Positions 13,333-58,282 of a stretch of DNA of 64,000 nucleotides are shown piece by piece. How positions within the stretch are numbered: the first letter of the stretch is position 1; each line of letters starts with the position of its first letter. A program made the position numbers and the translations under genes. The notes below the pieces were generated by a model, which worked only from the letters and a program-made list of their open reading frames with translations, did no database searches and was not told the DNA's origin. The stretch is from a virus, in IMG/VR virus record IMGVR_UViG_3300045988_163643, positions 128,001 to 192,000 of that record, one strand, 5' to 3'.

Positions 13333-13355
13333 ATAAGTAAAGTGAGGTGATTAAA

Positions 13356-27473: not shown

Positions 27474-27488
27474 GAAGGAGTTGGTTTA

Positions 27489-30400: not shown

Positions 30401-33400
30401 TATTTCTAATGCTTTAGCAAGTTTTACTACTTGTGATGTCTTAGTATATAGAGGAGACCAATTAGTTAAGGCTACTATTGGAACAATAGAAAACATACCT
30501 AAAGGAATGACAATCACTATTGATAATAACAATACAATTACTCCTACTTTGAATATAAATGTTAATACTAACTTAACTGAAAACGGTGAATTAAGTATAC
30601 CTATTACAGTTGGATTATTAAAGTTTACTAAAACATTTACTTATTCAATATCTTTTAAAGGTATGCAAGGAATTCCAGGTACTCCTGGTAAAGATGGTAA
30701 AGATGGGAATTCAGTAAGAGTATTGGGAAGATATGATAGTAAAGAACAATTAGATTCTACTCATCCTACTGGAAACGAAAATGGTGACGGATATATAATT
30801 GACAAAGATTTATGGGTATGGACAGAAAATCAATTTATAAATGTTGGTCAATTCCAAGGTGAAGATGGTACATCTACATATGTACATATTAGATATTCTA
30901 ATGATGGAGTAACCTTTACTGGCAGTAATGGTGAAGAAGTTGGTACTTGGATGGGTATGTATGTAGATAATATTGAAGAAGATTCAACAGTATTTTCAAA
31001 ATATAAATGGAAAAAAATAGAAGGTTCGGATGCTAAATTATTATCATTATCTGCAAGTAGACAAACAATAGCTTTTAATAGTGATAATACATTAAAAGAT
31101 AATGCTGAAATAGTATTAACTGCTAATCAACAAAATTTTAATGATGTTATAACATGGTCTACAAGTCCTAATGTAGAATTAGGTAGTAGTGGTAATAATA
31201 GAACATTGAATCCAACAATATTTACAAATAATAATCAAATAAAGATAACAGTAACTGGTGGAGGTTTAACTGATAGTATTACAATAGTAAAAGTATTAGA
31301 TGGACAAAAAGGTTCAGATGGTACTTCAGTTAAAATATTAGATTCTTATAATAGTAAAGAAGAATTAGACCAAGCTCATCCTGATGGAAATGAAAATGGT
31401 GACGGATATATAATTGATAAAGATTTATGGGTGTGGAATGGTAATGAATTCATAAACGTTGGTCAAATAAAAGGAAATGATGGACAAAACGGTCAAGATG
31501 GTCTAAACGGTACTTCAGCTTATATACATATAAAATATTCTAATGATGGTGGTGTAACATTTACTAATAATAATGGTGAAGATGCTGGAGATTATATGGG
31601 TGTATATACAGATGAGATTAAAGCAGATAGTACAAATCCTTCTGATTACACTTGGAGTTTGACTAAAGGTAATGATGGTTGGGATGCTTATACTGTCTTG
31701 CTAACAAATGAATCTCATACATTTGCAGGTAATTCATCAACTGCCCTAGTTGGTTCTGCAAACTGTGGTATTATAGGTTATAAAGGTGGTACTCAAGTAG
31801 CTACAACAATAGGCAATATTACAGGAATGCCAAAAGGTATGAGCGTATCAATAACAAATAATAGTACGACAAATGCTTATTTTATAGTTACAGTATCCAA
31901 CAGTATGTCAACAAAAAATGGTACATTAACAATTCCTATTACAATTGATGGGATAACATTTACAAAAAAATTCACTTATGCTTTATCATTAAAAGGTGAA
32001 GATGGTACAGATGGTACTAATGGTTCAGATGCTAAATTATTATCATTATCAGCAAATAGACAAGCAATAGCATTTGATAAAAATAACTCTCCTAAAGATT
32101 CAACTGTTATAACCTTAACTGCTAATCAACAAAATTTTAATGATGTTATAACATGGTCTACAAGTCCTAATGTTACTTTAAATGGTGAAGGAAACACAAG
32201 AACCTTATCAGTTAATAACTTTACTAATAATTTAAAAATATCCATTACTATTAAAGCAGGTGACTTAAGTGATACTATAACATTAGTTAAAGTAATTGAT
32301 GGTGTAGATGGAATAGATGGTTCTGATGGAACTGATGGTGTAGATGGATGTACTATTAACTTAACTAATGATAATCATAGTTTCGTAGCGAATGCAGAAG
32401 GACAAATTGAAATGCAACAAGCTGTTACTACAACAGTTATAGCTTATAAAGGTAGTGAGATTGTAACACCTAGTTTTGGTACAATGCCAACTGTTAATGG
32501 TTTAAAAATCACAAGAGATGGATTAACTATAACAATAGTTGCTTTAGTTGGAAGTACACTTGCTTCAAATGGCTCATTTAATATTCCTGTAATAATTGAT
32601 GGAATAACTTTTAATAAAGCATTTAGTTATAGTAAAGTAAAATGTGGTGATGACGGAGCAGATGGATATACTATAATATTAACTAATGAGAATCATACAT
32701 TTCCTTGTGAAAATAATGGAACTATAGAAACAGCCATTACTACAACAACACAAGTAAAAGTTTATCAAGGTACTAAAGAAATAACGCCTACTATTGGTAC
32801 TTTACCTACTGTAGATGGATTAACATTAAGTAAAAGTGGAACAACTATAACTATTACTGCTACAACAGGTAATAAATTGGCTTCATCTGGTAACTTTAGT
32901 GTTCCGATTATAATTAATGATGTTACTTATTATAAAGTATTTAGTTGGGCGAAAGCATTTAAAGGTAATGCAGGACAAGATGGTAAGGCAGATTTACCAA
33001 CTTGGATTACTGAATGGGATACTGGTAAGACAACAATCAATGGTTCAACTGTATTAACTCCTAAAATCTTTGCAGGTACAGTTAGTAATGGATTGCCAAC
33101 TGGTGTTGCTATGGGTAAAAATGTATTTGGAACTAGTGGTAGTTATAGTGGTGTTAATGGTATAGTTGGATATAAGAGCGGTACTAAAACTTATGAATTC
33201 AACACTAATGGAGAAGTATTGATAGGTAATAAAAATGCTTCACATATTAGTTGGGATGGTAGCAATTTAGAGATAGTAAGTGGTAGTAGTCCAGTTGCCA
33301 GTAAAGCTGATGTTGACAAAGTAAATCAAAAGATTAATGAAATAAAAGAAAATGTAGATGATTATACAATAGTTATAACTAAAGATACAATAGTAACTAA

Positions 33401-33431
33401 ATGTGATATAAATGGAAATATAATAGATTAA
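27489..33431 (+). CDS. giant tail fiber / host-recognition protein (1,980 aa) with collagen-like G-X-Y stretches and repeated Ig-like modules
   Basis: Three copies of a GxxGxxG + ..GDxYxxxxxLWVW.. + Y(L/V/I)HI(K/R)YSNDG..FT..NGE..G module. Duplicated LSLSAxRQxIAF..LTANQQNFNDVITWSTSPNV segments are also present. Confidence 0.6.
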   Translation: MLLPNIPATTYISWTGLVIIDKSDNTPYIVNDGKSCMKYIYWDMNDNPYVLKESNEWIKETATKKMIYINENGIGTQVPHDDYDIYYNDTGNGSSSQLTGEALGKYNELNGKYMTIKEDVDGIKQVLGSTESGSGSLVERVNKIEKTAEETKETISTVEKNFSNNKELEELRNNINVSMINLGETLAQYEELITKVSEDMEVSSDEKIDISAIQNQLLDNYTVMSQYHQVLIERLKSSEEDNTDTINNLNKNLDALNTSINNLNSLVNDSISDNTIVPSEITTMLNAIANVAVKNTQYKNAVSDAILLGIGGKLVESILDIRKTSNNFSQTISKMEEDIDGETGLKVLVQKNATAIKQTADNLILNYVKYNETTSQLTIGDNVIKLDAGKVLMTGTLTWDSLDDSAKKNLKGEAGSAQYVMLVGDQIFKYDKDGNPNVSAITLNVQVSNIQNPVFDWYYRDAKVSSEWTNIPSNSNLSSFILKHDDPIWGNNSNSITIKVVCGDYTDEMTIVKLHDGVIGEDAKSVSINGNQLFRYKGGFTETPNPTSITLTATRNNISADKTSRWYYRISESDDWTEITSSKNANTLIVNHDSYFGDSKILMIRYEVETYYDIMTLAKITDGADGYAVLLTNENHSVPCDENGNYTFEAISTAYTYVKVYKGLSEVTSFNLERIDDGCTSVYSNGTRRLDVTSLSKNIATVTLNITVDGNTFQKVMTITKSIKGEKGEEGTGVNIIGKLENKDQLPATGKPGDAYVIDGLLYVWLEENNGWSDGVPFRGEQGIPGKNGTDGRTTYLHIKYSNDGKTFTNNNGEDTGDWIGQYTDYIETDSTNFADYKWKKIKGEDGEKGIVANLTNDTHIVPIESDGTFGEDSFKGCSTKITLSYVGQELINGVSYSAKPNSDIEGTLDTKTGTYTVTNWTGEAKGTYVDLIAIYDGVSYTKRFTINRAKNPLDAYTVVLTNEAHIFPGDISNALASFTTCDVLVYRGDQLVKATIGTIENIPKGMTITIDNNNTITPTLNINVNTNLTENGELSIPITVGLLKFTKTFTYSISFKGMQGIPGTPGKDGKDGNSVRVLGRYDSKEQLDSTHPTGNENGDGYIIDKDLWVWTENQFINVGQFQGEDGTSTYVHIRYSNDGVTFTGSNGEEVGTWMGMYVDNIEEDSTVFSKYKWKKIEGSDAKLLSLSASRQTIAFNSDNTLKDNAEIVLTANQQNFNDVITWSTSPNVELGSSGNNRTLNPTIFTNNNQIKITVTGGGLTDSITIVKVLDGQKGSDGTSVKILDSYNSKEELDQAHPDGNENGDGYIIDKDLWVWNGNEFINVGQIKGNDGQNGQDGLNGTSAYIHIKYSNDGGVTFTNNNGEDAGDYMGVYTDEIKADSTNPSDYTWSLTKGNDGWDAYTVLLTNESHTFAGNSSTALVGSANCGIIGYKGGTQVATTIGNITGMPKGMSVSITNNSTTNAYFIVTVSNSMSTKNGTLTIPITIDGITFTKKFTYALSLKGEDGTDGTNGSDAKLLSLSANRQAIAFDKNNSPKDSTVITLTANQQNFNDVITWSTSPNVTLNGEGNTRTLSVNNFTNNLKISITIKAGDLSDTITLVKVIDGVDGIDGSDGTDGVDGCTINLTNDNHSFVANAEGQIEMQQAVTTTVIAYKGSEIVTPSFGTMPTVNGLKITRDGLTITIVALVGSTLASNGSFNIPVIIDGITFNKAFSYSKVKCGDDGADGYTIILTNENHTFPCENNGTIETAITTTTQVKVYQGTKEITPTIGTLPTVDGLTLSKSGTTITITATTGNKLASSGNFSVPIIINDVTYYKVFSWAKAFKGNAGQDGKADLPTWITEWDTGKTTINGSTVLTPKIFAGTVSNGLPTGVAMGKNVFGTSGSYSGVNGIVGYKSGTKTYEFNTNGEVLIGNKNASHISWDGSNLEIVSGSSPVASKADVDKVNQKINEIKENVDDYTIVITKDTIVTKCDINGNIID

Positions 33432-46563: not shown

Positions 46564-47946
46564 ATGGCTACAGAAGGTAAAAAAATAAGTCAACTAACAG
46601 AAGTGTTAAGTGTTGACAAAGAAAATGACTATATAATTGTACAACGTGGAGCAGATAATAAAAAGTTAAAATTAGCCAATGTAATGACAACAGATAATAT
46701 GGGTGACAATTATGTTGATTTAAAATCATATGAAGATAAAAGTGAATTTAGATTAATTATAAATGATGATGGAAAAGTTCAAGTATTTCCAAAGGAATGT
46801 GTTGAGGGTCATACTTATGCTGAAAATGATAATTTACAAATGCCTTTAAAATTAGCTAGTTATATAGGTAATTCTCAAACTGCATTATCTACTGTTAATA
46901 ATGGAGGTATTGTTATTAATCAAATTTATGGTGGTGGAGATTTAGTACCAACATCAACTTTACAAGCACCTAGCGTTAGTCATAGTTTTGTTGAATTATA
47001 CAATCGTAATGTTGTAGATATTAATTTAAAAGGATTATATTTACATTATAAAGGTAATGATGAAACTGTTTGGAAAACATTAGCGTTAAGAGGACTTTTA
47101 CCAGCACACACTGCTTTTTTAATTAGAGGTAAACAACATGGAGATTTAATGAGTGATTTAGTAAGATGTAAAATATACGATTATGACCAAGAATGGATAG
47201 ATTCTGATAAAAATGAACCTATTGCATTTAGTAGAAATGGTATGTCAATGTTTTTATCAACTAACTCAACTCCGCCTAATGCTAATGAAAACCCTAATAG
47301 ATATCTTATAACAACTGATACTTCAGGTGTATCAACATTATCATATGTCAATGGATATTATGTAGATTTATTAGGTGTGGGTAGTGCTGATGGAACAAAA
47401 AACCCAGTTGCTTATGAAAAATTCTATTGGACTTGTATGGATAAAGATACTGCAATAAGAAGAATAGATTTTTATAATAATAAAAATAACAAATATGATA
47501 CAAAAGCTATAAATTATAAAACTTGTAATATAGAACATTATAGACCAAGAAGTTTAAGAGATGGAATTTGGGATAACTATTGTGATAAAGCAACTATAAA
47601 TGAAAACATACCTAATCTTATAGATATAACTTTTGGTGAACAACCTACAACAAGACTTTTTACATGGCAATCTGTTTTAACAGATAATGGTTGTGTAAAA
47701 CTTAGAAGAATAAAAGATAAAAGTGGAGTAGCAGTAACTGAAAATTGGAAAAAATATGAAAGTGAACGTGAAATAGTTAATAATCATGGTACATTTATGA
47801 CAATACATAGAACTAAAATAACCAATATAACACCTGGTTTATACGAATATCAATGTGGAGAAGAAGGTTATTGGTCAGATGTACAAATGATAGAAATGAG
47901 AGAATATACAGATAGTAGTACTATTAAAATGCTTTGGACTACGGAT
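46564..47946 (+). CDS. LTD + metallophosphoesterase protein, exon 1 of 4
   Basis: Lamin-tail-like VELYNRNVVDINLKGLYLHY. The exon ends ..KMLWTTD (phosphoesterase motif I Asp) directly before an in-frame UAA that opens the intron. Confidence 0.7.
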
Positions 47947-48270
47947 TAAATATTAGTCCCTATGTAAAGTGATTTATATAGCAAACCTCTTGAATTGCTG
48001 GGAAACCCTTAGAGCCTTAATACCACAATATAAGAGAAATCATTATATGAAGGTTTGAAAAGTTTAAGGATTGGGTAATCAGCAGGTAAGATTCTAAGTT
48101 GTATAAACAATATGAATAAACTTCAACGAACAAGTATCCTAGTAGTCTAGGTAGTGGGAGGGGTCTCGAAAGAGATTGTGATATGCTCTACTCTCATGTG
48201 AAAGCATGAGCAGTTTTCTTTGAGTAAGAAAACGGGTAGAATAGTAACGATATTCTATTGAATATAAAGG
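47947..48270 (+). mobile_element. group I intron Met-1 (ORF-less; variant P7)
   Basis: P1 is GGAU|UAAAUAUUAGUCC with a canonical U at -1. The core is GAAUUGCUGG... The P7 strands are changed to GAACA / UGCUC. The GUAACGA hairpin is followed by GAAUAUAAAGG. Confidence 0.7.
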
Positions 48271-48394
48271 CAACAAGGTTTCACTCAACCTGAGTATGAA
48301 GCATGGAGAACTTGTGTTAAAGCTATGCAAACTAGAACTGATTTTTATAATAATTATGGCTTACCTGTATTTGATTTTCATTTGAACACTGGAG
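48271..48394 (+). CDS. metallophosphoesterase, exon 2 of 4
   Basis: Encodes QQGFTQPEYEAWRTCVKAMQTRTDFYNNYGLPVFDFHLNTG(D). Confidence 0.7.
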
Positions 48395-48759
48395 TAACAA
48401 ATTAAGCTCCCTATGTAAATAAATTGCATAGCAAACCCTTTGAATTGCTTGTAATCCCTAAAGTCAACTAAACTACAACGTGATTGGAAACGATGAGCGT
48501 GAATGTGGCGAAAGCAGAAAAAATTAGTTGAATTGTATATGGTTAAATCCTAAGTACTATAAACAATGGGTGTCTAGCAGGTAAGATTCTAAGTTACTAT
48601 AAGTAATATGAATAAACTTCAACGACTATATATACTAGTAGTCTAGTTAGTGGAGGGCATCTCTTTATGGGATGATGATATAGTCTACTCTCATATGAAA
48701 GTATGAGCAGTTCATAAGAGAACGGTATAAAGTATAACGAACTTTATATGAATATTAGG
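48395..48759 (+). mobile_element. group I intron Met-2 (ORF-less)
   Basis: P1 is GGAG(U)AACAAAUUAAGCUCC. P2 is CUAUG..CAUAG. Internal helix is UCAACUAA/UUAGUUGA. P7 is CAACGACUA...GAUAUAGUC. The AUAACGA hairpin is followed by GAAUAUUAGG. Confidence 0.8.
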
Positions 48760-48857
48760 ATATTTCACAAAATGCATCTAATTTATTTGAATGGTTGTAT
48801 TACACTGATTATGGTGAAGAATTTTGTAGAAACATTCCTCACTTAACTGCATGTGGT
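48760..48857 (+). CDS. metallophosphoesterase, exon 3 of 4
   Basis: Encodes (D)ISQNASNLFEWLYYTDYGEEFCRNIPHLTACG, which completes motif II (GD) and starts motif III. Confidence 0.7.
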
Positions 48858-49171
48858 AAATGTTAGCCACCTTTACATAGTGATATGTAATGAAAAACTC
48901 ATTGAATTGCTGGAAAGTCCTAACGTAAAGACGAGGATAATCAGCAGGGAAGTCCCTTTAAAATGGGAAACCTTCAACGACTATCCCTTAGATGTTGAAA
49001 TACATCAATAGGAGTACGGCTCAAGTGATTGGAGTGGGTGAAAATCCCTTAAATGGAAGTGGTGAGCATCTCAATAGAGATGAAGATATAGTCTACTCTC
49101 ATGTGAAAGCATGAGCAGTTTTCATGTAAAGAAAACGGATTAAGTGTAGCGAACTTAATTGAATATAAAGG
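48858..49171 (+). mobile_element. group I intron Met-3 (ORF-less, shortened 5' half)
   Basis: P1 is GUGGU|AAAUGUUAGCCAC. P7 is CAACGACUA...GAUAUAGUC. The GUAGCGA hairpin is followed by GAAUAUAAAGG. A junction shifted by -1 at both ends gives the same protein. Confidence 0.75.
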
Positions 49172-50185
49172 AATAATGACCTCGTTGATAAAAAATATGG
49201 TTTTGCTTATGAACATTATGCTACATATGAAAATGTACCTAAATTAAATGATTATCATAAAGAAGTTCAAGCAACAACAGATTTTCCTATGGTATCTACA
49301 TATTCTTTTGATTTAGGATTTACTCATTTTATATGTATAAATTCAAATCAAGAACAAATGTATAATGATTATGGTATAAATCAAACAGAATTTTTATTAA
49401 AACAAGCTTACTTCCTAGATAGAGATTTATGGAAGGTTAGTAAAAGAACTACAAAACCTAAATGGGTAATTGTATATGCACATTTAAGTCCTTTTACTGT
49501 AACAAGAGCAAAAAGATTACAACATTGGATACCTATACTTGAAAAATATAATGTAGATTTATTCTTATGTGGTCATAACCATACATATTCAAGAAGTATA
49601 CCAATAAAATGTGGATATGAAAAATCTGCATATGCAGATATGATAAATGAAAAAAATTATAATACCTATGTACCAAAAAGTGGTAAAAATTACACTTTAG
49701 TAAATGAAACAAAATTAAGTGGTAGTGAGATAACTAGAAGTGCTAACATATCTCAAGGTGTTTATTATGTGATGTTCCAAGCAGGTGGTGCTAAACAAAG
49801 TGGTAAAGAAAAAGCTATTGATTTAAGTACTATGACATTCTTAAATAGCACTGGTGGAACAGTAACAAGTGGTACTGAATATACTAAACATTTCCATAGT
49901 GGAACAAATAGACCTTGGTGGTATGAATATACTAGCTCTTTACCAGTACAACCTTGTTTTGCAACTTTAGATATTTCACCAACATCAATAAAAATGAGTA
50001 TGAATTATGTTAAAGAAGTAGAAGCTATAGATAAAGAAACTGGCGTAATGACTGTAGATAAATACGACCCAAATAAACATACAATTGTTAACTTTGATAA
50101 TTTAACAATAAATTATTCAGATAGAAATCCAGCTTATAGAACTGGAGTATCTGCTCCTTATTATGACGAGAATAAAAATTATTAA
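49172..50185 (+). CDS. metallophosphoesterase, exon 4 of 4
   Basis: Starts NNDLV (motif III reads G-N-N-D across the junction). Later motifs are VIVYAHLSP (motif IV) and LFLCGHNHTYSRS (GHxH, motif V). Stop is at 50183-50185. Confidence 0.75.
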   Translation, partial: NNDLVDKKYGFAYEHYATYENVPKLNDYHKEVQATTDFPMVSTYSFDLGFTHFICINSNQEQMYNDYGINQTEFLLKQAYFLDRDLWKVSKRTTKPKWVIVYAHLSPFTVTRAKRLQHWIPILEKYNVDLFLCGHNHTYSRSIPIKCGYEKSAYADMINEKNYNTYVPKSGKNYTLVNETKLSGSEITRSANISQGVYYVMFQAGGAKQSGKEKAIDLSTMTFLNSTGGTVTSGTEYTKHFHSGTNRPWWYEYTSSLPVQPCFATLDISPTSIKMSMNYVKEVEAIDKETGVMTVDKYDPNKHTIVNFDNLTINYSDRNPAYRTGVSAPYYDENKNY

Positions 50186-50198
50186 AGGAGATGATTAA

Positions 50199-52911
50199 AT
50201 GTCTATTAAAAGATGTATTGTTAAAGACGGAAAAGAACAATGGATAGAAGTTGCTGGAGGAAGTAGCACTATAAATACAGGTGAAGCGATAAACGTTAGT
50301 ATAAAAGATAATAACGATTTATTTGAAAGTACAAACGTCGAAGGAGCCTTAAGTGAGTTAGGAACTGATTTGCAAAATGTTAGCAATAAATTAACAAATC
50401 ACGTAAACAATTCTTCTATACATGGTGGAGGTGGAGGTGGTGGTAGTATGCCTACCATCACTTCTGATTTTACTATAAATAAATCAGATGGTATAAGCGA
50501 AATAGAAATACCAATATTTTTTAATTCACCTAACTTAGGTGAAGGTTTAGCTTATATATTAGTTAGTAATGTTGAAGTAGGTACACAAACTGTTCAACAA
50601 GGTAACAATACGATTATAGTTCCTCCTTTGGGAGCTGGTAAAAATATAATTATATCAATATATGTAAAAGATAGAGCAGGTTTAATATCTAACCAAATAA
50701 ACTGGACAGTAACAAGTGGTGGTATAACATTAACAATGCTTACTGACACAAGTGCAGATTATGGTGTTACAAGTAGAATAGTTTTATCATATACAATATC
50801 TTCTATGACTGGTGAAGATATTAAAGTTTATTTTGATGTAGATGGCACAACATATGAAACAAAAGGTACTAATGGATATAACACTTATGAAATTACAGGA
50901 TTAGATATAGGTGTACATACTATAACTTATTGGGCGACATCAGCAGAATATGAAACAAAACATAGTACATTTACACTAATAGTAGTAAGTAAAGACCAAA
51001 TAATATTATCAACTCAATTTGATTCAACAATTGAATATGAAAGTGGTATACCAATTAGTATACCATATAGATTATCAGTAGATAGAGATGATGATTTTAT
51101 TGTAAATTTATATATAAATAATGTTTTAGATAAAACCATAGTAACTAGACCAACTTCATTGTATTGGACTATATCATCATTAGACCCTGGTGATTATACT
51201 TTAAAAATAGAAGCAAAAAATGAATCTTTAGGAATGAATAATCATATAGAATTTGAATGTAAAGTTATTCAAAGTGAATATACTAGAATACAACCAGTAA
51301 TAGATAGTTCTTTAATAGCTTGGTTTGATGCAACAAATAGAACTAACAATGATAGCGATAGGGATGTTTGGACTGATAAAATAAAAGGCAATAAAGGTTA
51401 TCTTTATAATTTTAACTATGGTTCTAATGGATGGTTAAAACAAAGTGGTAAGGAAATTAGTGAACTTGTTATGAATGGTACTGCTTATGTTGAAATAGAC
51501 ATGACACCTTTTGCTGATAACTTTAAAAATGGTGGTGTAATCGAATTAGTATTTAAAACTAGAGATGTTGGTAATAGTAATGCTAGAGTTTTAGATATAA
51601 CAGATACACTATCACCATATAAAGGTGTTTATATTGATACAAGAGAAGCATATTTATCTACTTCATCACAATCTATAAATGGTTCTATAGGTGAAGATGA
51701 ATATATACAAGTGTTATATAATATAGATAGAATTAACAAATATTGTCATATAGTTGTTAATGGAGTAATAATAAAATCTTGTAAATTAGCTGATAGTGGT
51801 AGTGGTACTTCTGCTATATTAGAATCATTAGCTCATTCTAAAAAGATTTATTTAAATTCCCAAAAAGGAACTAATAATTTTGGCTCTTGTGAAATAGCAC
51901 ATTTGAGAATATATGATAGAAACTTTACTTTTGATGAAATATTGCAAAACTTTTTATCAAATTACGATGATTTAAAAGTACAAAAAAGTAAATCGGATTT
52001 TAATAATCCATTAAAGAATATAATGCCTATCATGAATATAACTGCTGACCAAAAACGTTTAGATGATATGACAGATACAAATAGAGTTGAAGTTGCTATG
52101 ACATATACATCTCCTAATGCAGATTTATATGGACAAACTTTAACTAACGCTAGTAACTGTTTAATGTATTGGCAAGGTACATCTTCTATAGCATATAATA
52201 TTAAAAACTTTAATATATTACTTAGAGATGAAAATAGACAACCAATAATGTATAGTCCTTTTAAAAATTGTATACCACAAGATTTATTTTGTCTAAAAGC
52301 AAACTTAATGGAATCTACTAATGCTCATAACGTAGGTATAGCTGAATATGTTCATGATTACTTATATACAACTTTGAATCCTGCACAAAAAATAGATAGT
52401 AGAGCTAGTAGAACAGTACAAGGTTTCCCTATATTACTTTATATAAATGGTGAATTACAAGGTGTATATGACTTCAACTTAGATAGATATTCAACAAAAG
52501 CGTTTGGATATGAATTAGATGAATATAAAGATACTTGTAGAGCATATGAAATTTCAGCAAATACTAATAAAACTGCTGGTGCATTTATTCCTTGGACTAA
52601 GGAAACTGGTGTAGATGAATGGACATGGTATAAAAATGACTTTGTAGGTATATATCCTGAACGTATACAAAATTCAATTAATGATGATTTCTCTGCATTA
52701 AAAACATTAATATCATTTGTGCATGATTCTACTGATGAAGTTTTTACTACAAATTTCGCTACATATTTTGATAAAGAATCAGTAATAAGATATTACATTT
52801 TAGTTCTAGTACTTGGTTTAGTGGATAGTTTAGGAAAAAATATGAAGCTAGTAACATTTGATGGTGTTAAATGGGAAATACAAGTATATGATGCTGATAC
52901 GGCTTTTGGGT
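50199..52911 (+). CDS. LamG + CotH-kinase-like + LRR giant virion protein, exon 1 of 3
   Basis: The N-terminus has a fiber-type ..NVEGALSEL.. motif followed by a Gly7 linker and Ig-like repeats. A LamG-like ..AHLRIYDRNFTFDEI.. follows. The CotH-like block ends ..GKNMKLVTFDGVKWEIQVYDADTAFG(L). Confidence 0.65.
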
Positions 52912-52989
52912 TAATAATAGCTCAAATAAAACCTTTTCTGATATACGGCGAAACTCCTGGAGAGGACAACGCCTTCCAACTATTATTTA

Positions 52990-53018
52990 TTGACAAATTA
53001 TAAAAATATATGTATAAT
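52990..53018 (+). promoter_or_regulatory. perfect consensus sigma-A promoter TTGACA-N17-TATAAT inside intron L0
   Basis: Hexamers are at 52990-52995 and 53013-53018, upstream of the endonuclease RBS. Confidence 0.65.
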
Positions 53019-53054
53019 ATAAATATAAAGAGAATATATATAGGAGGTGATTAT

Positions 53055-53912
53055 GTGTGTAAGAAAGAGAATAGTTTTGCACAATGGTTTATAAATGAAT
53101 TTGGATTAGAAAAATTTAACACTGTCATAAATCATGAAAAAAATAAATCATTAGGCATAGATATTTGGAACGTATCAAAGAGAAGTGGTTGTAAAATTTG
53201 GTTTAAATGTGAAAATAAAGATTATCACGAATATCAACTTACAGCCGATAAATATTTTATTGGTAATAGATGTAAATATTGTGGCAGAACAAAATATGTT
53301 CATCCAAGAGATTCGTTAGGTCAATATATAATTGATAACTTTGGAGAAGATTTTTTAAATAGAATATGGTCAACAAAAAATAAAAAATCGCCTTTTGAAT
53401 ATACTATTGGAACTGAGAAGAAAGTTTGGTTTAATTGTATCAATGGTATTCATGAACCAAAATTAAGACAAATAAAAAATTCTGTTGCTAACGACTTTAA
53501 ATGCCCATTTTGTTTAAAAAATTGCCATATTTCAAAATTAGAAAAGAAAGTGTTTTTATATTTAAAAAGCATTTTTAAAAACATAAATAGAGAAAGCAAT
53601 TGTAATTTAATACCCAAAAATCCTAAAACTAATAAAATAATGCCTTATGATAATGAGATAGTGGACATAAAATTAATAATAGAAGTACATGGAAAACAGC
53701 ATTATGAATTATCAGTAGATACAAGTGCATGGTTACATGGATTATCACCAGAAGAATATCTTCATAAAAGAAAATTGTATGATAGGTATAAAAGAATGTA
53801 CGCAAAGTCCAATGGTTATTATTATTTAGAAATACCTTATTGGGCTGATGATTTAGAGGAAACTTGGAAAATTATGATTGATGATAAAATAAAAGAAATA
53901 TTAAGTCAATAA
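53055..53912 (+). CDS. intron-encoded putative homing endonuclease (2 zinc-ribbon modules + Vsr/DUF559-like nuclease)
   Basis: GTG 53055 lies 7 nt after AGGAGG (the track start 53010 lacks an RBS). Modules are WFKC..H..-RCKYC and WFNC..H..-KCPFC. The C-terminus has ..IIEVHGKQH..YLEIPYW. Confidence 0.65.
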   Translation: MCKKENSFAQWFINEFGLEKFNTVINHEKNKSLGIDIWNVSKRSGCKIWFKCENKDYHEYQLTADKYFIGNRCKYCGRTKYVHPRDSLGQYIIDNFGEDFLNRIWSTKNKKSPFEYTIGTEKKVWFNCINGIHEPKLRQIKNSVANDFKCPFCLKNCHISKLEKKVFLYLKSIFKNINRESNCNLIPKNPKTNKIMPYDNEIVDIKLIIEVHGKQHYELSVDTSAWLHGLSPEEYLHKRKLYDRYKRMYAKSNGYYYLEIPYWADDLEETWKIMIDDKIKEILSQ

Positions 53913-54104
53913 ATAATAGGGGAACAACGACTGAGCGAAAAGGACTTACTATAAAGTAAGTATGCAACAGTCTGAACTCACACTATAACTCAAAATATTA
54001 AGAAATGTGAGAAGGAAAGTCATCAGTAACCAGACTGATTAAAGAAGAACTTTCCTCGCCAACTTAGGTTGGTCGGTAGCCTTTATGGTGAAAGTAACAG
54101 AATG

Positions 54105-54556
54105 TAGATAATACAGGAGCATTGAAATATGATGTAGATATAGAAGTTGACCCTGAACATTTCAATACTGCCGATTCAGTATTATGGACTAGAATTAGAG
54201 AATTATTCTATAACGATATAGTTGCTGAATATAATAATATGAGAAATCAAAACTTAACACCTGAAAAAATATATGAAAGTGTATTTACAAATCAAATAGA
54301 AAAAATACCTGAAAGTCAATATAATCTTAGTACACAAAAGAAATATCTTGATACAGGTGAAAATATTATGATGTCTAATGGTAACAGATATTATAATTTG
54401 AAACGTTGGATAAAAGAAAGATTTATATATTGTGATACTTTATTTGATTACACTCCTACAACTGCTAAGTATGTAACTGTACGTTCAGGAGTAGAAGGTA
54501 AGGCTTATTTGGATATAGAAACTTATTATCCTATGTATATAACTATAGAATGGAGG
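54105..54556 (+). CDS. CotH-like/LRR protein, exon 2 of 3
   Basis: Joins exon 1 as GGG T|TA GAT (..TAFG-L-DNTGALKYDVDIEV..). The alternative 3' end is 54576. Confidence 0.6.
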
Positions 54557-55018
54557 AAACAATATTCCTCGTACATAGAGAAATCTGTGTAGGACACAAC
54601 TTTAATTGCAGGTAATGGGTAAAGCTCTACACCACAATATATCTGAAAAGAATATATGAAGGTACGAAAGTAGAAACAACGTAGAGATTCTCATACGGTT
54701 AAATCCTAAGTGAGAAGTGATTAGATTCACACAATCCCTGTTCATGCAAGGAAGTTCCTAAGTGATAATCTTGTATCATATGGAAAACCTTCAACGACTA
54801 TCCTGGAAAGATAAGTGAAATCCTTATCAATAGGAGTACGGCTCAAGCGATTGGAGTGGGTGAAAATCCCTTAAATGGAAGTGGGTTGCCCTTAACAGGT
54901 AATGCTGAAGGTGAAGAAATAGTCTACTCTCATGTGAAAGCATGAGCAGTTCTTTATTAAATTTTTAACATTTAATAAAGAACGATATGTATGTAGCGAA
55001 TACATATGAATACAAAGG
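54557..55018 (+). mobile_element. group I intron L1 (ORF-less, td-like family, closest to T2)
   Basis: The core is AAUUGCAGG...CUCUAC/GUAGAG...CAACGACUA...GAAAUAGUC. The GUAGCGA hairpin is followed by GAAUACAAAGG. An alternative boundary pair 54577/55017 also preserves the frame. Confidence 0.7.
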
Positions 55019-58000
55019 AATCAGGCTGATGGAAGTGGTCGCCAAACATTAAAAATAGGTAGAAATAAAAAAGTAAGATTTAATGGTGAAGTTCAAGCAA
55101 AAGACCAAGAAGTTCTTATTTATGGTGCTCCACATTTAAAAACAATAAGTGGAATGGATGGTATAAAACCACGACATTTATTATTAAATAATGCTCATAA
55201 ATTAACTGCCGTTGAATGTCCAAATAATACAGAACTAATAAATATTCAAATTGATAACTGTTCTTATTTACAAAGATTGGACTTAAGAGGTTGTAGTTCT
55301 TTAGGTAATTTAACATCTTCGCAAGTACTTATAGTTGATGGGTGTAACAATTTAAGATATTTAAATGCATACGGTACAATAATTACATCAATAAGAACCA
55401 ACCAAGAAGGTGGAAACTTAGTTGAATTATATGTACCACAAACTTTACAAACATTATCATTAAGAAATCAATATAGTTTAACAACTATAGGAATACCTAA
55501 TGCTAATGTTCATGGAAATAGTAGATTATTTGAACTTAGAAATAAAGCTAGTAAAATAGCAACATTTTCATTAATAAATTGTCCTCTAGTCAATAGATTG
55601 ACTTATAATTCATCATATAATGTTAATCATAATTTCTTTGATATACATGGAAATGAAAGAACTTCAAGTGAAATATCTTCTTTAACTTATGTTGAAAAAT
55701 GGAGAAGATTAATGGATTGGGGAAATGGATTAGCTAATGCTAGTGAAATTCATATAGAAAATAGTTGTCTTGATATTGAAGAAATGTCATTTAGAGGTAG
55801 TAGTAAATTAGAAAATTTAACATTAAGAAATTTACCTAATTTAAAGACATTAATGATAGGAGGAAATTGTTCGGGTTATAGATGGAACTCACAAAATAAT
55901 AATTATGAATCAGATAGATATGATACTTATGGTGAATTTGATTGGTCAGGATTAGTTATAAGAGATTGTCCTAATATAGAAGATTTTAGATTTCAAGAAT
56001 TATTCCCATTTAATTGGAATGGTGGTTGGGATGGTAACTTAAGTTATCTTACATTCAAAGAAGGTACTAATTCAATAAATCTTGGTGAAAAATTTCCTAA
56101 CTTAAAAACATTCTTCTGTAATTTACCTACTCAAAATATACATCAAATAATTTTACCTCAATCGTTAACTTGTTTAAATACAAGTGCATGGCAAACAAAA
56201 CATGATGAAGGTTATCCTCACGAAGTTAAATTAGAAAAATTTAATATAGATAGTATTTATTTTGAAGGAGAACATACAGATGATTATGTAGGAGTTGATT
56301 TAGGGAATCATTTAATGCATGATGTTAGAATAGTAGCACCTTATTCAACTGAACTAGTAGGATTAAATATTAAAAATGAATGGGTTAATCCTATATTTCA
56401 AACATTTAAAGAAGATGGTCATGAAGCAAGACCTTCATTAACACCTCAAGGTAAAATTGATTTATCTGAATTTAAATGGAAAAGGATATCAAATTGGTTT
56501 CAATATATCGACTTTACTAAAGGAACTTGTGAAGTGGTACAACCTACTAATTGGGATAGTTTCTTGAAAAATATTGAAAGAGCTGGTGGTATGTTCTATC
56601 GTTGTAAGAATCCTAATTTCACTTGGGAATTTGCAATGAAATTCTTTGGTAAAATGGCTGATACAAGTGATAAAAATACAATGTATAAATATGCACAATT
56701 GAAAGAACAAACTAGTTTTGAAGAAGATGCAGTAGATATGATTTCTAGTAAAAATGCATTTTATTATGATTATCAAGCTAGACCATTTCAAGGAACTAAT
56801 TTAAAATATGTTAAATCTATACAATTAACAGGAACTGATGGATGTTATGGTTTATTTTATGATTGTGAAAGTATTATAAAAGTTGGAAACATAAGTATGA
56901 CTGGAAATAATAATAACTGGTATGGTAATGGTGATATGTTTAATGGAGCTATAAATCTTGAAGAAGTAGGAAATATTTATTCAACAAGAAATAAAGAAAA
57001 TGGAACTGCAATTAATGGCAGTTGGTATTTTCAAAATTGTAAAAAATTAAGAAAAATAGGTAGAATTGACATGTCGTTAAATAATGGCAATTATATGTTT
57101 GATGGATGCATTTCTTTAGTAGATGGAAGTATAGAACAATTGCCATATACTGGGGATATGACAACTGCTTATTCCATGTTTAGAAATACTAGATTTACAA
57201 CAATTGAGTTAGAAAACTTATCTAGCTTAGAAAATGCAGATAATATGTTTTCTGCTAATCCTAATTTAAAAACAATTCATTTACCAAATATAGGCAGAAC
57301 AAGTCCTTTAAATAATTTAACAAATACATTTAATAGTGATAGTTCTTTAACAAAAATAACAATTGAAGGAGATACTTTGCCAATTGGATTAAAAAGTATG
57401 GCTGGTACTTTTAATGGTTGTATTTCATTGACTTCATTACCACCAATTCCTCAAGATTTTACTTATGATATAAATATGCAATATTGTTGTTATAATTGTG
57501 ATTCTTTAACTGATGATACAATTTATAAGGTAATACCATATAGATGTACACATACTCAATACATGTACTCTCATTGTGATGGATTAATTAATCCAGTAGT
57601 AGAAGTTAAATCAGATAATGTTTACGCTAGACAAATGTTTGAACGTTGTAAAAATATTAAAACATTAACAGTTAATTTTACAGGTAGATTGTTAAGAGAA
57701 AGTATGTATTTTGCTCAATATTGTACAAATATGACAGAATTTAACATGAAGTTTCCAGATTCTTTATATATGCATGATTACTATGAAACAGGTGTCGGTC
57801 ATTATAATATGTTAGAGTATTGTGAAAATTTATCTATTGTAAATTTAGATATGAGTAGTTTATCAAAAACTAACACTAGAAGTGATTTTGGTGCTATGTT
57901 TTATCAAGATAAACATATTACAGAAATACATGGATTAGATTTAACATATTTAAAGAAATTTACACATCCATTAACTAATGGTGGGCAAAATCATTATGAT

Positions 58001-58282
58001 TGGCATAATGATTCTATCACATATGGTGGTTCATATGATGACTTAAGGGTATTTGAATTAACTGGTAAATTAAATACAAGTTATAACTTTAGAAATATAA
58101 CTACAATAACACATACTAAAGAAATATTAAAACATCTTGATGTTGTTACTAATGAAACTTTAGGTTTGACTTATAATATTATGGATGCTATTGATGATGA
58201 ATTAAATGAATATGTTGACCCTGAATTAAAACAATTAGCTCTTACTGCAAGAGATAATGGATGGACTTTTGTAGTTGTATAG
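55019..58282 (+). CDS. CotH-like/LRR protein, exon 3 of 3 (BspA-type leucine-rich repeats)
   Basis: The frame is open from 55010 upstream of the track ATG. It contains repeated ..L..L.L..C..L..L.. units and BspA-like ..F..C..L..I.. units. Confidence 0.65.
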   Translation, partial: NQADGSGRQTLKIGRNKKVRFNGEVQAKDQEVLIYGAPHLKTISGMDGIKPRHLLLNNAHKLTAVECPNNTELINIQIDNCSYLQRLDLRGCSSLGNLTSSQVLIVDGCNNLRYLNAYGTIITSIRTNQEGGNLVELYVPQTLQTLSLRNQYSLTTIGIPNANVHGNSRLFELRNKASKIATFSLINCPLVNRLTYNSSYNVNHNFFDIHGNERTSSEISSLTYVEKWRRLMDWGNGLANASEIHIENSCLDIEEMSFRGSSKLENLTLRNLPNLKTLMIGGNCSGYRWNSQNNNYESDRYDTYGEFDWSGLVIRDCPNIEDFRFQELFPFNWNGGWDGNLSYLTFKEGTNSINLGEKFPNLKTFFCNLPTQNIHQIILPQSLTCLNTSAWQTKHDEGYPHEVKLEKFNIDSIYFEGEHTDDYVGVDLGNHLMHDVRIVAPYSTELVGLNIKNEWVNPIFQTFKEDGHEARPSLTPQGKIDLSEFKWKRISNWFQYIDFTKGTCEVVQPTNWDSFLKNIERAGGMFYRCKNPNFTWEFAMKFFGKMADTSDKNTMYKYAQLKEQTSFEEDAVDMISSKNAFYYDYQARPFQGTNLKYVKSIQLTGTDGCYGLFYDCESIIKVGNISMTGNNNNWYGNGDMFNGAINLEEVGNIYSTRNKENGTAINGSWYFQNCKKLRKIGRIDMSLNNGNYMFDGCISLVDGSIEQLPYTGDMTTAYSMFRNTRFTTIELENLSSLENADNMFSANPNLKTIHLPNIGRTSPLNNLTNTFNSDSSLTKITIEGDTLPIGLKSMAGTFNGCISLTSLPPIPQDFTYDINMQYCCYNCDSLTDDTIYKVIPYRCTHTQYMYSHCDGLINPVVEVKSDNVYARQMFERCKNIKTLTVNFTGRLLRESMYFAQYCTNMTEFNMKFPDSLYMHDYYETGVGHYNMLEYCENLSIVNLDMSSLSKTNTRSDFGAMFYQDKHITEIHGLDLTYLKKFTHPLTNGGQNHYDWHNDSITYGGSYDDLRVFELTGKLNTSYNFRNITTITHTKEILKHLDVVTNETLGLTYNIMDAIDDELNEYVDPELKQLALTARDNGWTFVVV

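What the first reader, a model, noticed from the sequence alone, without database searches (positions are those of the whole stretch)
46564..50185. Virion-module metallophosphoesterase with a lamin-tail domain, whose three introns sit exactly on catalytic motifs I, II and III
The spliced product (872 aa) carries the full calcineurin/purple-acid-phosphatase-type motif series: ..LWTTD|QQG (motif I), ..HLNTG|DISQN (motif II, GD), ..LTACG|NNDL (motif III, reading GNND instead of GNHD/E), VIVYAHLSP (motif IV) and LFLCGHNH (motif V). The vertical bars mark the three intron positions. Insertion at the most conserved codons fits the known preference of homing introns for invariant active-site sequence, yet none of these three introns retains an endonuclease ORF. 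The N-terminal half contains a lamin-tail-like segment (VELYNRNVVDINLKGLYLHY). The presence of a phosphoesterase among baseplate and fiber genes is itself unexplained.
Basis: partly seen in the sequence, partly recalled or inferred. Interest (0 to 1): 0.65.

Follow-up and report, generated by a model that had tools for sequence, protein, structure and literature searches.

The report
Intron-split phage tail phosphoesterase gene
A phage tail-module gene for a purple-acid-phosphatase-like enzyme is cut by three self-splicing group I introns, each placed at a codon for a metal-binding residue; this is a clear, well-documented example of known mobile-intron behaviour, not a new kind of element.

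Summary
Rfam finds three group I introns above the family threshold at 47947-48270, 48395-48759 and 48858-49171. Removing them gives an 872-aa protein that matches Pfam Pur_ac_phosph_N and Metallophos above their cut-offs. An AlphaFold model matches plant purple acid phosphatases, PhoD and the lamin Ig fold. Uninterrupted homologues (gut-metagenome phages, Bacillus phage G gp352, crAss-like "phosphatase") read TDQQG, GDISQN and GNNDL straight across the three junctions.

Related contigs show a presence/absence mosaic of these introns plus a fourth at G669|H670 (motif V). Introns 2, 3 and 4 also occur with an HNH-type endonuclease ORF. Homologues only 33-43% identical carry introns at sites 1, 3 and 4. 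Exons downstream of intron 2 have dN/dS of about 0.1, so they are translated in frame.

One refinement: intron 2 must splice after a G, with the U·G pair one base inside the intron. RT-PCR has shown exactly this for "group B" IStron ribozymes, and those are intron 2's closest full-length relatives among sequenced phages.

The enzyme's role is inferred: probably a tail-tip phosphodiesterase acting on envelope polymers.

The parts
46564..47946 (+). Exon 1 (residues 1-461). Contains a variable N-terminal segment, the lamin-tail-like Ig domain, the PAP N-terminal domain and motif I, ending ...LWTTD. D461 is codon 47944-47946.
   Evidence: ORF. Junction fixed by uninterrupted homologues. P1 pairing is GGAU/GUCC with U·G at the last exon base.
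46897..47136 (+). Lamin-tail-domain-like segment (residues 112-191, including SHSFVELYN).
   Evidence: Pfam LTD 26.1 bits, below the 34.3 cut-off. 22 of 38 family members match LTD. Foldseek hits lamin B1 3umn and lamin A/C 6rpr with probability 1.0.
47611..47883 (+). Purple-acid-phosphatase N-terminal (FN3-like) domain, residues 350-440.
   Evidence: Pfam PF16656, 33 bits against a cut-off of 30. 28 of 38 family members match.
47947..48270 (+). Intron 1: group I, 324 nt, no ORF. The intron begins with an in-frame stop (TAA). It lies between D461 and Q462.
   Evidence: Rfam RF00028 62.5 bits, E 1.8e-13. Absent from 96%-identical alleles L004, L005 and L007. Present in L019 and L109, and at the same site in the 37-41%-identical L149.
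48271..48394 (+). Exon 2 (residues 462-502 plus the first base of the D503 codon): QQGFTQ...FHLNTG + G.
   Evidence: Relatives lacking intron 1 read straight through (P0030).
48395..48759 (+). Intron 2: group I, 365 nt, no ORF. It starts with U and ends AGG. The 5' splice site follows G48394, and the P1 U·G pair (GGAGU/GCUCC) is displaced one base into the intron.
   Evidence: Rfam 65.1 bits. P1 fold. The junction is forced by homologues and frame. It is 96% identical in L004. An HNH-ORF version occurs in L109 and L008. Closest full-length relatives among sequenced phages are the IStrons of C. botulinum phages c-st and D-1873 and of B. cereus phage LY2. Splicing after G is documented for group B IStrons in PMC4227781.
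48760..48857 (+). Exon 3 (rest of the D503 codon to G535): (D)ISQNASNLFEWLYY...HLTACG. Motif II is at its start, and the G of motif III is at its end.
   Evidence: dN/dS is 0.09-0.13 for exons 3-4 among alleles that carry intron 2.
48858..49171 (+). Intron 3: group I, 314 nt, no ORF. It lies between G535 and N536. At the nucleotide level the junction is ambiguous by one base, with the same protein either way.
   Evidence: Rfam 100.5 bits, E 7.7e-25. L004, L006 and L007 carry the same intron with a 287-aa HNH ORF inserted between its nt 95 and 112. Its 3' portion is 81% identical to an intron in the PBS1/AR9 virion protein gene.
49172..50185 (+). Exon 4 (residues 536-872 plus the stop codon). 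Contains NNDL (motif III), AH639LSP (motif IV), GH670NH672 (motif V) and a C-terminal beta-rich domain.
   Evidence: Relatives L005, L007, L011, L019, L109 and L146 have a fourth intron at G669|H670, which is absent here.
52912..54104 (+). Context, not part of the finding: a 1193-nt insertion in the neighbouring CotH-domain gene, carrying the HNH-type ORF 53010-53912. It is probably a fourth, ORF-bearing group I intron in this window.
   Evidence: The intronless relative L013 reads TAFGLDNTGAL across the break. ORF matches: Pfam DUF4379 and phrog_559. A P1 with canonical U·G is seen by eye. Not detected by the Rfam model.

Best explanation
The locus is one gene of the distal-tail (host-contact) module of a large, low-GC gut phage. 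It encodes an 872-aa protein with four parts: a variable N-terminal segment, a lamin-tail-like Ig domain, a purple-acid-phosphatase N-domain, and a binuclear metallophosphoesterase domain with a C-terminal beta domain.

The gene is interrupted by three group IA2-type self-splicing introns. After transcription each intron folds, excises itself and ligates the exons, restoring the codons of the metal ligands D461, D503 and N536. An in-frame stop codon at or within four codons of each intron start halts ribosomes on unspliced RNA.

The introns are mobile elements, or recent derivatives of them. They spread by HNH-type homing endonucleases that cut intron-less alleles at the highly conserved DNA encoding the catalytic motifs. 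The three copies here have no endonuclease ORF and persist as passengers.

Intron 2 belongs to a ribozyme lineage that splices after a G, with its U·G pair one base inside the intron. This is what allows it to sit inside a GAU (Asp) codon.

What is shown: the introns, the junctions, the domain family, the intron polymorphism, the endonuclease-bearing relatives, and purifying selection on the downstream exons.

What is inferred: actual splicing, virion location, and enzyme role. My best guess for the role (about 0.4) is a tail-tip phosphodiesterase that cuts phosphodiester-linked envelope polymers such as teichoic-acid-type or phosphoglycan chains.
For: Introns:
- Three RF00028 hits lie above the gathering score, with P1/P2 hairpins at each 5' end.

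Junctions:
- Uninterrupted homologues at 27-75% identity read through all three.

Frame use:
- dN/dS is 0.08 upstream and 0.09-0.13 downstream of intron 2 among alleles that carry intron 2.

Mobility:
- Allele mosaic: window has I1+I2+I3; L004 has I2+I3(HEG); L005 has I2+I3+I4(HEG); L011 has I4(HEG) only; L019 and L109 have all four; L013, L015, L136 and L137 have none.
- The intron ORFs match phrog_559 'HNH endonuclease' with E 5e-76 to 1e-79, plus the CapR and DUF4379 zinc-finger domains.
- Introns sit at sites 1, 3 and 4 in 33-43%-identical homologues L149, L147 and L146, and at a fifth nearby site in L145.
- Many cluster representatives end at query residues 457-464, 502-505 or 535.
- Insertion sites lie in the 90-96th percentile of nucleotide conservation. 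The 20-nt windows coding TGDISQNA, NNDLVDK and CGHNHTY are among the ten most conserved.

Intron 2 splice site:
- GGAG|U with IGS GCUCC is conserved in the window, L004, L005, L007, L008 and L009.
- Group B IStrons show the same geometry, and RT-PCR proved splicing after G (PMC4227781).
- Intron 2's best full-length phage-database matches are those IStrons.

Protein:
- Pfam hits.
- AlphaFold model with pLDDT 84.9 and pTM 0.78.
- Foldseek hits: PPD1 3zk4 (E 3e-20), wheat purple acid phytase, kidney-bean and sweet-potato PAPs, and PhoD 2yeq (E 3e-11).
- D461, Q463, D503, N507, N536, N537, D538, H639, H670 and H672 are invariant in 38-40 sequences.

Context:
- Tape measure, Dit, tail proteins, a GH16 giant protein and a Peptidase_S74 fibre lie upstream, and a CotH/LRR gene lies downstream.
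- The same gene order is seen in relatives.
- The MPE plus CotH/LRR pair is also found in phage G gp352-gp353.
Against:
- The intron 2 5' splice site is non-canonical. It rests on homology, frame, selection and a literature precedent, not on data from this intron.
- The catalytic His of GNH(D/E) is Asn in the whole family, and the PAP tyrosine ligand is Gln, so activity and substrate could differ from known PAPs.
- PHROGs has no family for the protein, and no virion proteomics was found for any homologue.
- In phage G the homologue lies outside the main tail module.
- No endonuclease ORF is present in the three window introns, so current mobility here would need an endonuclease supplied in trans.
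Confidence: 0.8

Rival explanations
1. The gene is decaying. The interruptions are degenerate, non-splicing intron remnants, at least intron 2 with its missing U at -1. Only the N-terminal 461- to 505-aa fragment (LTD plus PAP-N domain) would then be made.
For: Intron 2 lacks the canonical U at the last exon position. Cleavage after the U·G pair would shift the frame and stop after 8 codons; my enumeration finds no in-frame canonical alternative. None of the three introns carries an endonuclease ORF. Gene callers already report the 505-aa product as a protein (P0030, 360 cluster members).
Against: All three ribozyme cores score above the Rfam threshold. Exons 3-4 have no stop codons and dN/dS of 0.09-0.13 between intron-2-bearing alleles, with dS about 0.24. 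Intron 2 is 96% conserved between those alleles. A ribozyme lineage with exactly this P1 geometry has been shown experimentally to splice after G.
Confidence: 0.05
2. The protein is a structural or binding tail component that keeps a phosphatase fold but is not an enzyme (a pseudo-enzyme).
For: GNND replaces GNH(D/E), and Gln replaces the PAP tyrosine ligand, in every family member. The Metallophos score is modest at 32.7 bits. Tail fibres often recycle enzyme folds as binding modules (general knowledge).
Against: Six of the seven canonical metal-ligand positions (D461, D503, N536, H639, H670, H672), plus D538 and Q463/N507, are invariant down to 27% identity. That pattern is expected for a maintained metal centre. 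Variation at the His of motif III occurs in active family members (from memory, not tested here).
Confidence: 0.15
3. The enzyme is a nuclease or nucleotide phosphodiesterase, not an envelope-polymer phosphodiesterase. It might degrade extracellular DNA/RNA in biofilm matrix, or nucleotides or second messengers at the cell surface.
For: The best structural match, PPD1 (3zk4), is a diphosphonucleotide phosphatase/phosphodiesterase. Metallophosphoesterases include ssDNA endonucleases (PMC7826289, listed). Bacterial LTD domains are often fused to extracellular nucleases (from memory).
Against: No nuclease-specific motif or DNA-binding domain was found. The gene sits among glycan-directed tail genes (GH16, S74 fibre, CotH/LRR). 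PhoD also matches; from memory, it acts on teichoic acid.
Confidence: 0.2
4. The placement of introns on every catalytic motif is functional for the phage. Under this view splicing gates production of the active enzyme, or failed splicing deliberately yields truncated LTD-only isoforms, rather than the placement being a by-product of endonuclease target choice.
For: Early in-frame stops in each intron would give defined 461-, 505- and 537-aa products. Intron-bearing alleles are abundant in gut metagenomes.
Against: Fully intron-less alleles are common in close relatives with the same gene order. Any combination of introns occurs. Endonuclease-bearing versions and conserved-DNA targeting explain the placement without any benefit to the phage.
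Confidence: 0.05

Closest known systems
Group B IStron ribozymes (BcISt1 of Bacillus cereus; CbISt3/CbISt4 of Clostridium botulinum phages c-st and D-1873), Tourasse et al. 2014, PMC4227781
   Same: IA2-type core. The last exon base is G and the first intron base is U. The U·G pair is shifted one base from the splice site and closes the P1 stem next to a loop. The intron ends in GG or AG. The c-st and D-1873 elements are the best full-length matches to intron 2 (69% identity over 82% of the query).
   Different: IStrons carry IS607/IS605-type transposase ORFs at their 3' end and insert by transposition at GG sites. Intron 2 has no ORF here and carries an HNH-type homing endonuclease ORF in relatives L109 and L008. 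No transposase is present.
Staphylococcus phage Twort orf142, one gene with three group I introns (Landthaler and Shub 1999; cited from memory)
   Same: A single phage gene with three self-splicing group I introns of one family, in a Firmicutes phage.
   Different: A different gene. Here the insertion sites are mapped to metal-ligand codons, a fourth and a fifth site exist in relatives, and population polymorphism is documented from metagenomes.
Bacillus phages AR9/PBS1 virion protein gene g205 (CDS annotated as joined from three pieces)
   Same: Group I introns inside a virion protein gene next to the tape measure. One intron is 81% identical to about 160 nt of the 3' part of window intron 3.
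   Different: The host gene is not homologous to the phosphoesterase.
Phage T4 td/nrdB/nrdD introns and the general rule that homing introns and inteins sit in conserved active-site sequence (established knowledge, from memory)
   Same: IA2 introns, endonuclease-driven homing, ORF-less derivatives, and insertion at the most conserved coding DNA.
   Different: Those targets are nucleotide-metabolism genes. The endonucleases here belong to a zinc-finger/CapR-domain family annotated as HNH (phrog_559).
Plant purple acid phosphatases, PPD1 (3zk4) and Bacillus subtilis PhoD (2yeq)
   Same: An FN3-like N-domain followed by a binuclear metallophosphoesterase fold (Foldseek E 3e-20 to 3e-11). Motif order is D / GD / GN.D / H / GH.H.
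   Different: 12-15% sequence identity. The Tyr ligand is replaced by Gln, and GNH(D/E) by GNND. The phage protein adds an N-terminal lamin-tail domain and a C-terminal beta domain, and sits in a phage tail context.
Bacillus phage G gp352, crAss-like phage 'phosphatase' (e.g. crAss002 gp19), and homologues in Bacteroides DAC/SJC and Lak phages
   Same: True homologues (24-31% identity over 46-83% of the protein) with the same domain order and the same invariant motifs. In phage G the gene is followed by a CotH/LRR giant protein, as it is here.
   Different: All of these copies are uninterrupted. Their N-terminal extensions differ. No function has been tested for any of them.

Membership tests
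Group I intron (Rfam RF00028) | Covariance-model score at or above the curated gathering score (50 bits) | tested here: met
   62.5, 65.1 and 100.5 bits for introns 1, 2 and 3.
Group I intron (Rfam RF00028) | Last 5'-exon base is U, forming a U·G pair with the internal guide sequence in P1 | tested here: inconclusive
   Met for intron 1 (GGAU/GUCC) and compatible for intron 3 (GUGGU/GCCAC). Not met for intron 2: the exon ends in G, and the U·G pair involves the first intron base. This is the documented exception seen in group B IStron ribozymes.
Group I intron (Rfam RF00028) | Terminal G (omega G) at the 3' splice site | tested here: met
   All three introns end ...A(A)GG immediately before the homology-defined exon start.
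Group I intron (Rfam RF00028) | Self-splicing with exon ligation | not testable with these tools
Indirect support only: dN/dS of about 0.1 in the downstream exons.
Mobile (homing) group I intron | Intron-encoded homing endonuclease | tested here: not met
   The three window introns have no ORF longer than 52 aa. Homologous introns in relatives do carry 248- to 362-aa ORFs matching phrog_559 'HNH endonuclease'.
Mobile (homing) group I intron | Presence/absence polymorphism at a fixed site among closely related alleles | tested here: met
   Eight different intron combinations occur across the loci examined, including 96%-identical alleles with and without intron 1.
IStron | IS200/IS605- or IS607-type transposase ORF within the intron | tested here: not met
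   No ORF in intron 2. The ORFs in relatives are of the HNH/zinc-finger type, not transposases.
Calcineurin-like metallophosphoesterase superfamily (Pfam PF00149) | HMM score above the gathering cut-off on the spliced protein | tested here: met
   32.7 bits against 21.5. 38 of 38 family members match.
Calcineurin-like metallophosphoesterase superfamily (Pfam PF00149) | Five-motif metal-binding signature: D.. / GD / GNH(D/E) / H / GH.H | tested here: inconclusive
   D461, G502-D503, G535-N536, H639 and G669-H670-x-H672 are all invariant. The His of motif III is Asn (N537) in every member.
Purple acid phosphatase subfamily | N-terminal FN3-like domain (PF16656) preceding the catalytic domain | tested here: met
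   33 bits against 30. The top Foldseek hits are PAPs.
Purple acid phosphatase subfamily | Tyrosine ligand in motif II (GDxxY), which gives the Fe(III)-tyrosinate chromophore | tested here: not met
   Motif II reads GDISQ, with Q506 nearly invariant. I therefore call the protein PAP-like, not a PAP.
Lamin tail domain (PF00932) | HMM score above the gathering cut-off | tested here: not met
   26.1 bits against 34.3 for the window protein. 22 of 38 relatives match at E<=1e-3.
Lamin tail domain (PF00932) | Lamin-type Ig fold | tested here: met
   Foldseek hits 3umn (lamin B1) and 6rpr (lamin A/C Ig fold) with probability 1.0 on the AlphaFold model.
Virion (tail) protein | Detected in purified particles | not testable with these tools
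   Only positional evidence: the gene lies between an S74-chaperone fibre gene and a CotH/LRR gene, downstream of the tape measure, Dit and tail proteins.

The most novel reading that the evidence does not exclude
'Splice-after-G' group I ribozymes have been documented only as the RNA half of IS607-type IStrons. The comparative data here suggest they also circulate in gut phages as ordinary homing introns (HNH-carrying or ORF-less).

Because they do not need a U at the end of the exon, they can colonise codon positions closed to canonical introns. GGAG|U, GAAG|U and GGG|U junctions are seen at three different sites of this gene family.

Together with the canonical introns, they make this tail phosphoesterase a population-wide intron sink: four of its metal-ligand codons (D461, D503, N536, H670) are targeted somewhere in the family.
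Probability: 0.4. Interest if true: 0.5.

Novelty: new member of a known kind. Interest (0 to 1): 0.38.

Why it matters
- **Annotation.** Gene callers split this gene into two to five 'hypothetical proteins'. One fragment cluster alone, the 505-aa one, has 360 members. The tail phosphoesterase family is therefore systematically mis-annotated in gut phage catalogues.
- **Intron biology.** The locus offers a natural series for homing, ORF-loss and co-conversion studies. It includes 0 to 4 introns per allele, versions with and without endonuclease ORFs, and shared sites in homologues down to about 35% identity.
- **Splice-site rules.** The locus extends the rare splice-after-G P1 geometry beyond IStrons.
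- **Phage-host biology.** A conserved LTD-PAP phosphoesterase, paired with a CotH/LRR giant protein in the window's relatives and in Bacillus phage G, is an untested candidate host-envelope enzyme. Homologues of the phosphoesterase also occur in phages of Bacteroidota.

Tried and rejected
- **Canonical splicing of intron 2.** I enumerated every combination of cleavage after U48395 with a nearby terminal G. All give a frameshift or hit the in-frame TAG at 48756-48758. The alternatives that keep the frame replace D503 by Val. I rejected these in favour of GGAG|AU.
- **Frameshifting rescue.** Programmed ribosomal frameshifting to rescue a canonical splice cannot regenerate the Asp codon, so I rejected it.
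- **Rfam P1 for intron 2.** The Rfam alignment of P1 for intron 2 is placed on upstream exon sequence and is not meaningful. I replaced it with the fold and the comparative sequences.
- **Protein family libraries.** PHROGs has no family for the phosphoesterase. A plain sequence search of the PDB gives only marginal PAP hits (E about 0.01).
- **Other introns in the window.** Permissive Rfam scans of 1-27000 and 52800-55300 found no further group I matches. The model does not tolerate the ~0.9-kb ORF insertions, so the CotH insertion and the endonuclease ORFs around the tape-measure pieces remain unconfirmed as introns.
- **Pattern scan.** A 15-mer scan of viral contigs returned mostly chance hits; 16 had group I hallmarks.
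- **Literature.** Searches for phage G gp352, for crAss002 'phosphatase' function and for introns in phage metallophosphoesterases found nothing specific.
- **Codon adaptation at site 1.** GAU at D461 is not exclusive to intron-1-bearing alleles. It is also present in some distant intron-less homologues, so I make only a weak claim there.

Full report
**What is at the coordinates**

The window is about 28% GC, and all long ORFs are on the + strand. Between 46564 and 50185 there is a 461-aa ORF and a 298-aa ORF separated by 1.3 kb. Rfam finds three full-length group I introns in that gap:
- 47937-48210, 62.5 bits
- 48363-48707, 65.1 bits
- 48847-49115, 100.5 bits

The gathering score is 50 bits.

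From the sequence and the script, the gene structure is:
- exon 1: 46564-47946
- intron 1: 47947-48270 (324 nt)
- exon 2: 48271-48394
- intron 2: 48395-48759 (365 nt)
- exon 3: 48760-48857
- intron 3: 48858-49171 (314 nt)
- exon 4: 49172-50185

All three introns end with ...GAAUAU(A)A(A)GG. An in-frame stop lies at the very start of intron 1 and within four codons of the start of introns 2 and 3.

**Are the junctions right?**

tblastn against sequenced phages finds uninterrupted homologues:
- Bacillus phage G gp352 (31% identity over 81% of the protein)
- the 'phosphatase' of crAss002 and other crAss-like phages
- homologues in Bacteroides DAC/SJC phages and Lak phages

The three-way alignment reads W(V/T)TDQQG, INTGD(I/M).QN and VGNNDL without a break, exactly where the window has its introns.

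The large protein search returns 268 relatives at E<=1e-10. These include 47 full-length uninterrupted proteins at 52-75% identity.

In 38- and 40-sequence alignments, these residues are invariant: D461, Q463, G502, D503, N507, G535, N536, N537, D538, H639, G669, H670 and H672. The junctions therefore sit at D461|Q462, G502|D503 and G535|N536, each next to a predicted metal ligand. GNND is a family trait, not a lesion.

**What the protein is**

Pfam results on the spliced protein:
- Pur_ac_phosph_N at residues 350-440: 33 bits, cut-off 30
- Metallophos at 495-674: 32.7 bits, cut-off 21.5
- LTD at 112-191: 26.1 bits, below its 34.3 cut-off

Across the family, Metallophos matches 38 of 38 members, the PAP N-domain 28 of 38, and LTD 22 of 38.

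An AlphaFold model built on 38 sequences has mean pLDDT 84.9 and pTM 0.78. Its best PDB matches are:
- lupin PPD1, 3zk4 (E 3e-20)
- wheat purple acid phytase
- sweet-potato and kidney-bean purple acid phosphatases
- B. subtilis PhoD, 2yeq (E 3e-11)
- for the N-terminal Ig-like domain, lamin B1 and lamin A/C tails (probability 1.0)

Among predicted viral structures, the top hits are phage G gp352 and crAss-like phosphatases.

The PAP tyrosine ligand (GDxxY) is Gln here, and the His of GNH(D/E) is Asn. I therefore call the protein PAP-like, not a PAP.

A search of 1.84 billion cluster representatives finds 86 at E<=1e-30. The conserved core (about residues 114-680) is embedded in proteins of 800-1400 aa with differing N-termini.

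**Genomic context**

Upstream genes:
- tape-measure-like ORFs (7974-13112, 15031-22410)
- Dit (24994-25776)
- minor tail and tail proteins (25788-33431)
- a 2035-aa protein with a GH16 domain
- a 612-aa protein with the Peptidase_S74 fibre chaperone domain

Downstream is a CotH-domain gene followed by an LRR ORF.

The same gene order is found in relatives from human and pig gut metagenomes, on contigs of up to about 200-280 kb. Related contigs are binned with Bacilli and Clostridium MAGs, so a Firmicutes host is likely. This host assignment is an inference.

The pairing of the phosphoesterase with a CotH/LRR giant protein recurs in phage G gp352-gp353. A review of Crassvirales lists phosphatase domains among tail-spike subunits (PMC10136315). 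A phosphoesterase in a host-contact module is therefore recurrent, though untested.

**The introns are, or were, mobile**

I mapped the spliced protein and the three introns onto related contigs. This gives a mosaic:

| Locus | Intron 1 | Intron 2 | Intron 3 | Intron 4 |
|---|---|---|---|---|
| window | yes | yes | yes | no |
| L004, L006 | no | yes | yes, with 287-aa ORF | no |
| L005 | no | yes | yes, no ORF | yes, with ORF |
| L007, L074, L128 | no | yes | yes, with ORF | yes, with ORF |
| L019 | yes | yes | yes | yes, with ORF |
| L109 | yes | yes, with 248-aa ORF | yes | yes, ORF-less (373 nt) |
| L011, L012 | no | no | no | yes, with ORF |
| L013-L016, L136, L137 | no | no | no | no |

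Intron 4 lies at G669|H670, inside motif V (GHNH).

The intron ORFs match phrog_559 'HNH endonuclease' (E 5e-76 to 1e-79). They also match the Pfam CapR and DUF4379 zinc-finger domains.

Homologues only 33-43% identical to the window protein carry introns at the same sites: L149 at site 1, L147 at site 3 and L146 at site 4. L145 has one at a fifth site eight codons after D503.

Many cluster representatives in the unbiased search stop at query residues 457-464, 502-505 or 535, or start at 465 or 530-533. This is what intron-split genes look like to a gene caller.

In a codon alignment of 14 homologues, sites 1-4 fall in the 90-96th percentile of nucleotide conservation. The 20-nt windows coding TGDISQNA, NNDLVDK and CGHNHTY are among the ten most conserved.

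This fits the standard explanation that homing endonucleases select invariant coding DNA. Equally conserved segments in the LTD and PAP-N domains carry no intron in the sample examined.

**The one real anomaly, and its resolution**

Homology and reading frame require exon 2 to end ...ACUGGAG and exon 3 to begin AUAUUU. The equivalent split one base to the left is GGA|GAU. Either way, the last exon base is not U.

The P1 stem GGAGU/GCUCC places the U·G pair on the first intron base. This stem is conserved in the window, L004, L005, L007, L008 and L009.

Cleavage after that U gives a frameshift whichever nearby terminal G is used. The same geometry occurs in the L011/L146 version of intron 4 (GGG|U...GCCC), and it is compatible with L145 (GAAG|U...GCUUC).

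Exons 3-4 are nevertheless under purifying selection among intron-2-bearing alleles. dN/dS is 0.09-0.13 with dS of about 0.24, against 0.08 for exons 1-2.

The literature supplies the precedent. Tourasse et al. 2014 (PMC4227781) describe 'group B' IStrons with four matching features:
- the 5' exon ends in G
- a U is the first intron base
- the U-G pair is shifted by one base pair and abuts a loop
- sequenced RT-PCR products show that BcISt1 splices after the G

Intron 2's best full-length matches among 50,697 phage records are the IStrons of C. botulinum phages c-st and D-1873 and of B. cereus phage LY2. The c-st junction reads GAGG|UAAC...GCCUCC.

Intron 2 is therefore a transposase-less relative of that ribozyme lineage. 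Its odd splice site is a known, experimentally supported exception.

**Mechanism, with shown and inferred steps marked**

Shown:
- three group I ribozyme cores
- precise in-frame junctions
- the PAP-like metallophosphoesterase and lamin-tail domain architecture
- intron presence/absence polymorphism
- endonuclease-bearing sister introns
- selection on all exons

Inferred:
- self-splicing in vivo
- spread by HNH-endonuclease homing followed by ORF loss
- incorporation of the protein in the tail
- a phosphodiesterase activity on envelope polymers

The envelope-polymer guess rests on three things: the PhoD/PAP fold, the glycan-directed neighbouring genes, and a probable Gram-positive host. I give it about 0.4. 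Nuclease (0.2) and pseudo-enzyme (0.15) are the alternatives.

**Comparison with known systems, and verdict**

Multi-intron phage genes are known (Twort orf142, from memory). So are introns in virion genes; in AR9/PBS1 g205, one intron is 81% identical to part of intron 3 here. Insertion at conserved active-site codons, ORF-less derivatives and the splice-after-G ribozyme type are all known too.

What is new:
- the host gene
- the completeness of the pattern: five sites, four of them at metal-ligand codons, shared across deep divergence
- the occurrence of the group-B-type P1 in HNH-associated or ORF-less phage introns

I class the finding as a new member of a known kind, of moderate interest (0.38).

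Noticed in passing
window 50199-54592, insertion at 52912-54104: The neighbouring CotH-domain gene is itself split by a 1193-nt insertion carrying a 300-aa HNH-type ORF (53010-53912; DUF4379, phrog_559). The intron-less relative L013 reads TAFGLDNTGAL across the break. The 5' end forms a canonical P1 (UUGGGU/GCUCAA), and the insertion ends AAUG. The Rfam model does not detect it.
   Followed up: partly
window 4308-5249, 7364-7972, 13347-14252, 23103-24431: Four more homing-endonuclease-like ORFs lie next to or between the two tape-measure-like ORFs (7974-13112 and 15031-22410) and before Dit. Three match phrog_559 (HNH) and one matches phrog_314 (GIY-YIG-like). The tape-measure gene may also be split by ORF-bearing introns. 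No covariance-model hit was obtained.
   Followed up: partly
window 54592-55154: A gap of about 560 nt separates the second CotH exon ORF from the 1042-aa LRR ORF (55154-58282). Relative L015 encodes one continuous 2112-aa CotH protein, so there may be another intron here.
   Followed up: no
L001 (Bacillus phage G) 7410-16180; window 46564-58282: The gene pair of an LTD-PAP phosphoesterase followed by a giant ConA-like/CotH/LRR protein is conserved between this phage and Bacillus phage G (gp352-gp353). This suggests the two proteins work together.
   Followed up: partly
L005 10014-10016, L011 5362-5364 and other relatives with intron 4: Intron 4 ends ...AAUG, and that AUG is in frame with the downstream exon. 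Gene callers therefore start a 204- or 205-aa ORF exactly at the 3' splice site.
   Followed up: no
window 48856-48858 and 49170-49172: The intron 3 junction is ambiguous by one nucleotide. It can be read as GGU|...AAAGG|AAU (canonical) or as GG|U...AAAG|GAAU (group-B-like). Both give Cys-Gly-Asn-Asn.
   Followed up: yes
window 47941-47946 versus L004, L005, L007, L008, L009, L011, L013, L015: Intron-1-bearing alleles read (A/U)CG GAU at T460-D461, which makes the P1 pairing GGAU/GUCC. The eight closest intron-1-less alleles compared read ACA/ACU GAC. This suggests co-conversion or adaptation of the exon to the guide sequence. However, GAU also occurs in some distant intron-less homologues.
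   Followed up: partly
protein clusters P0030 (505 aa, 360 members), P0048, P0049, P0011: Public protein catalogues hold the intron-truncated fragments of this gene as separate 'hypothetical proteins' ending in read-through residues such as ...HLNTGVTN.
   Followed up: yes
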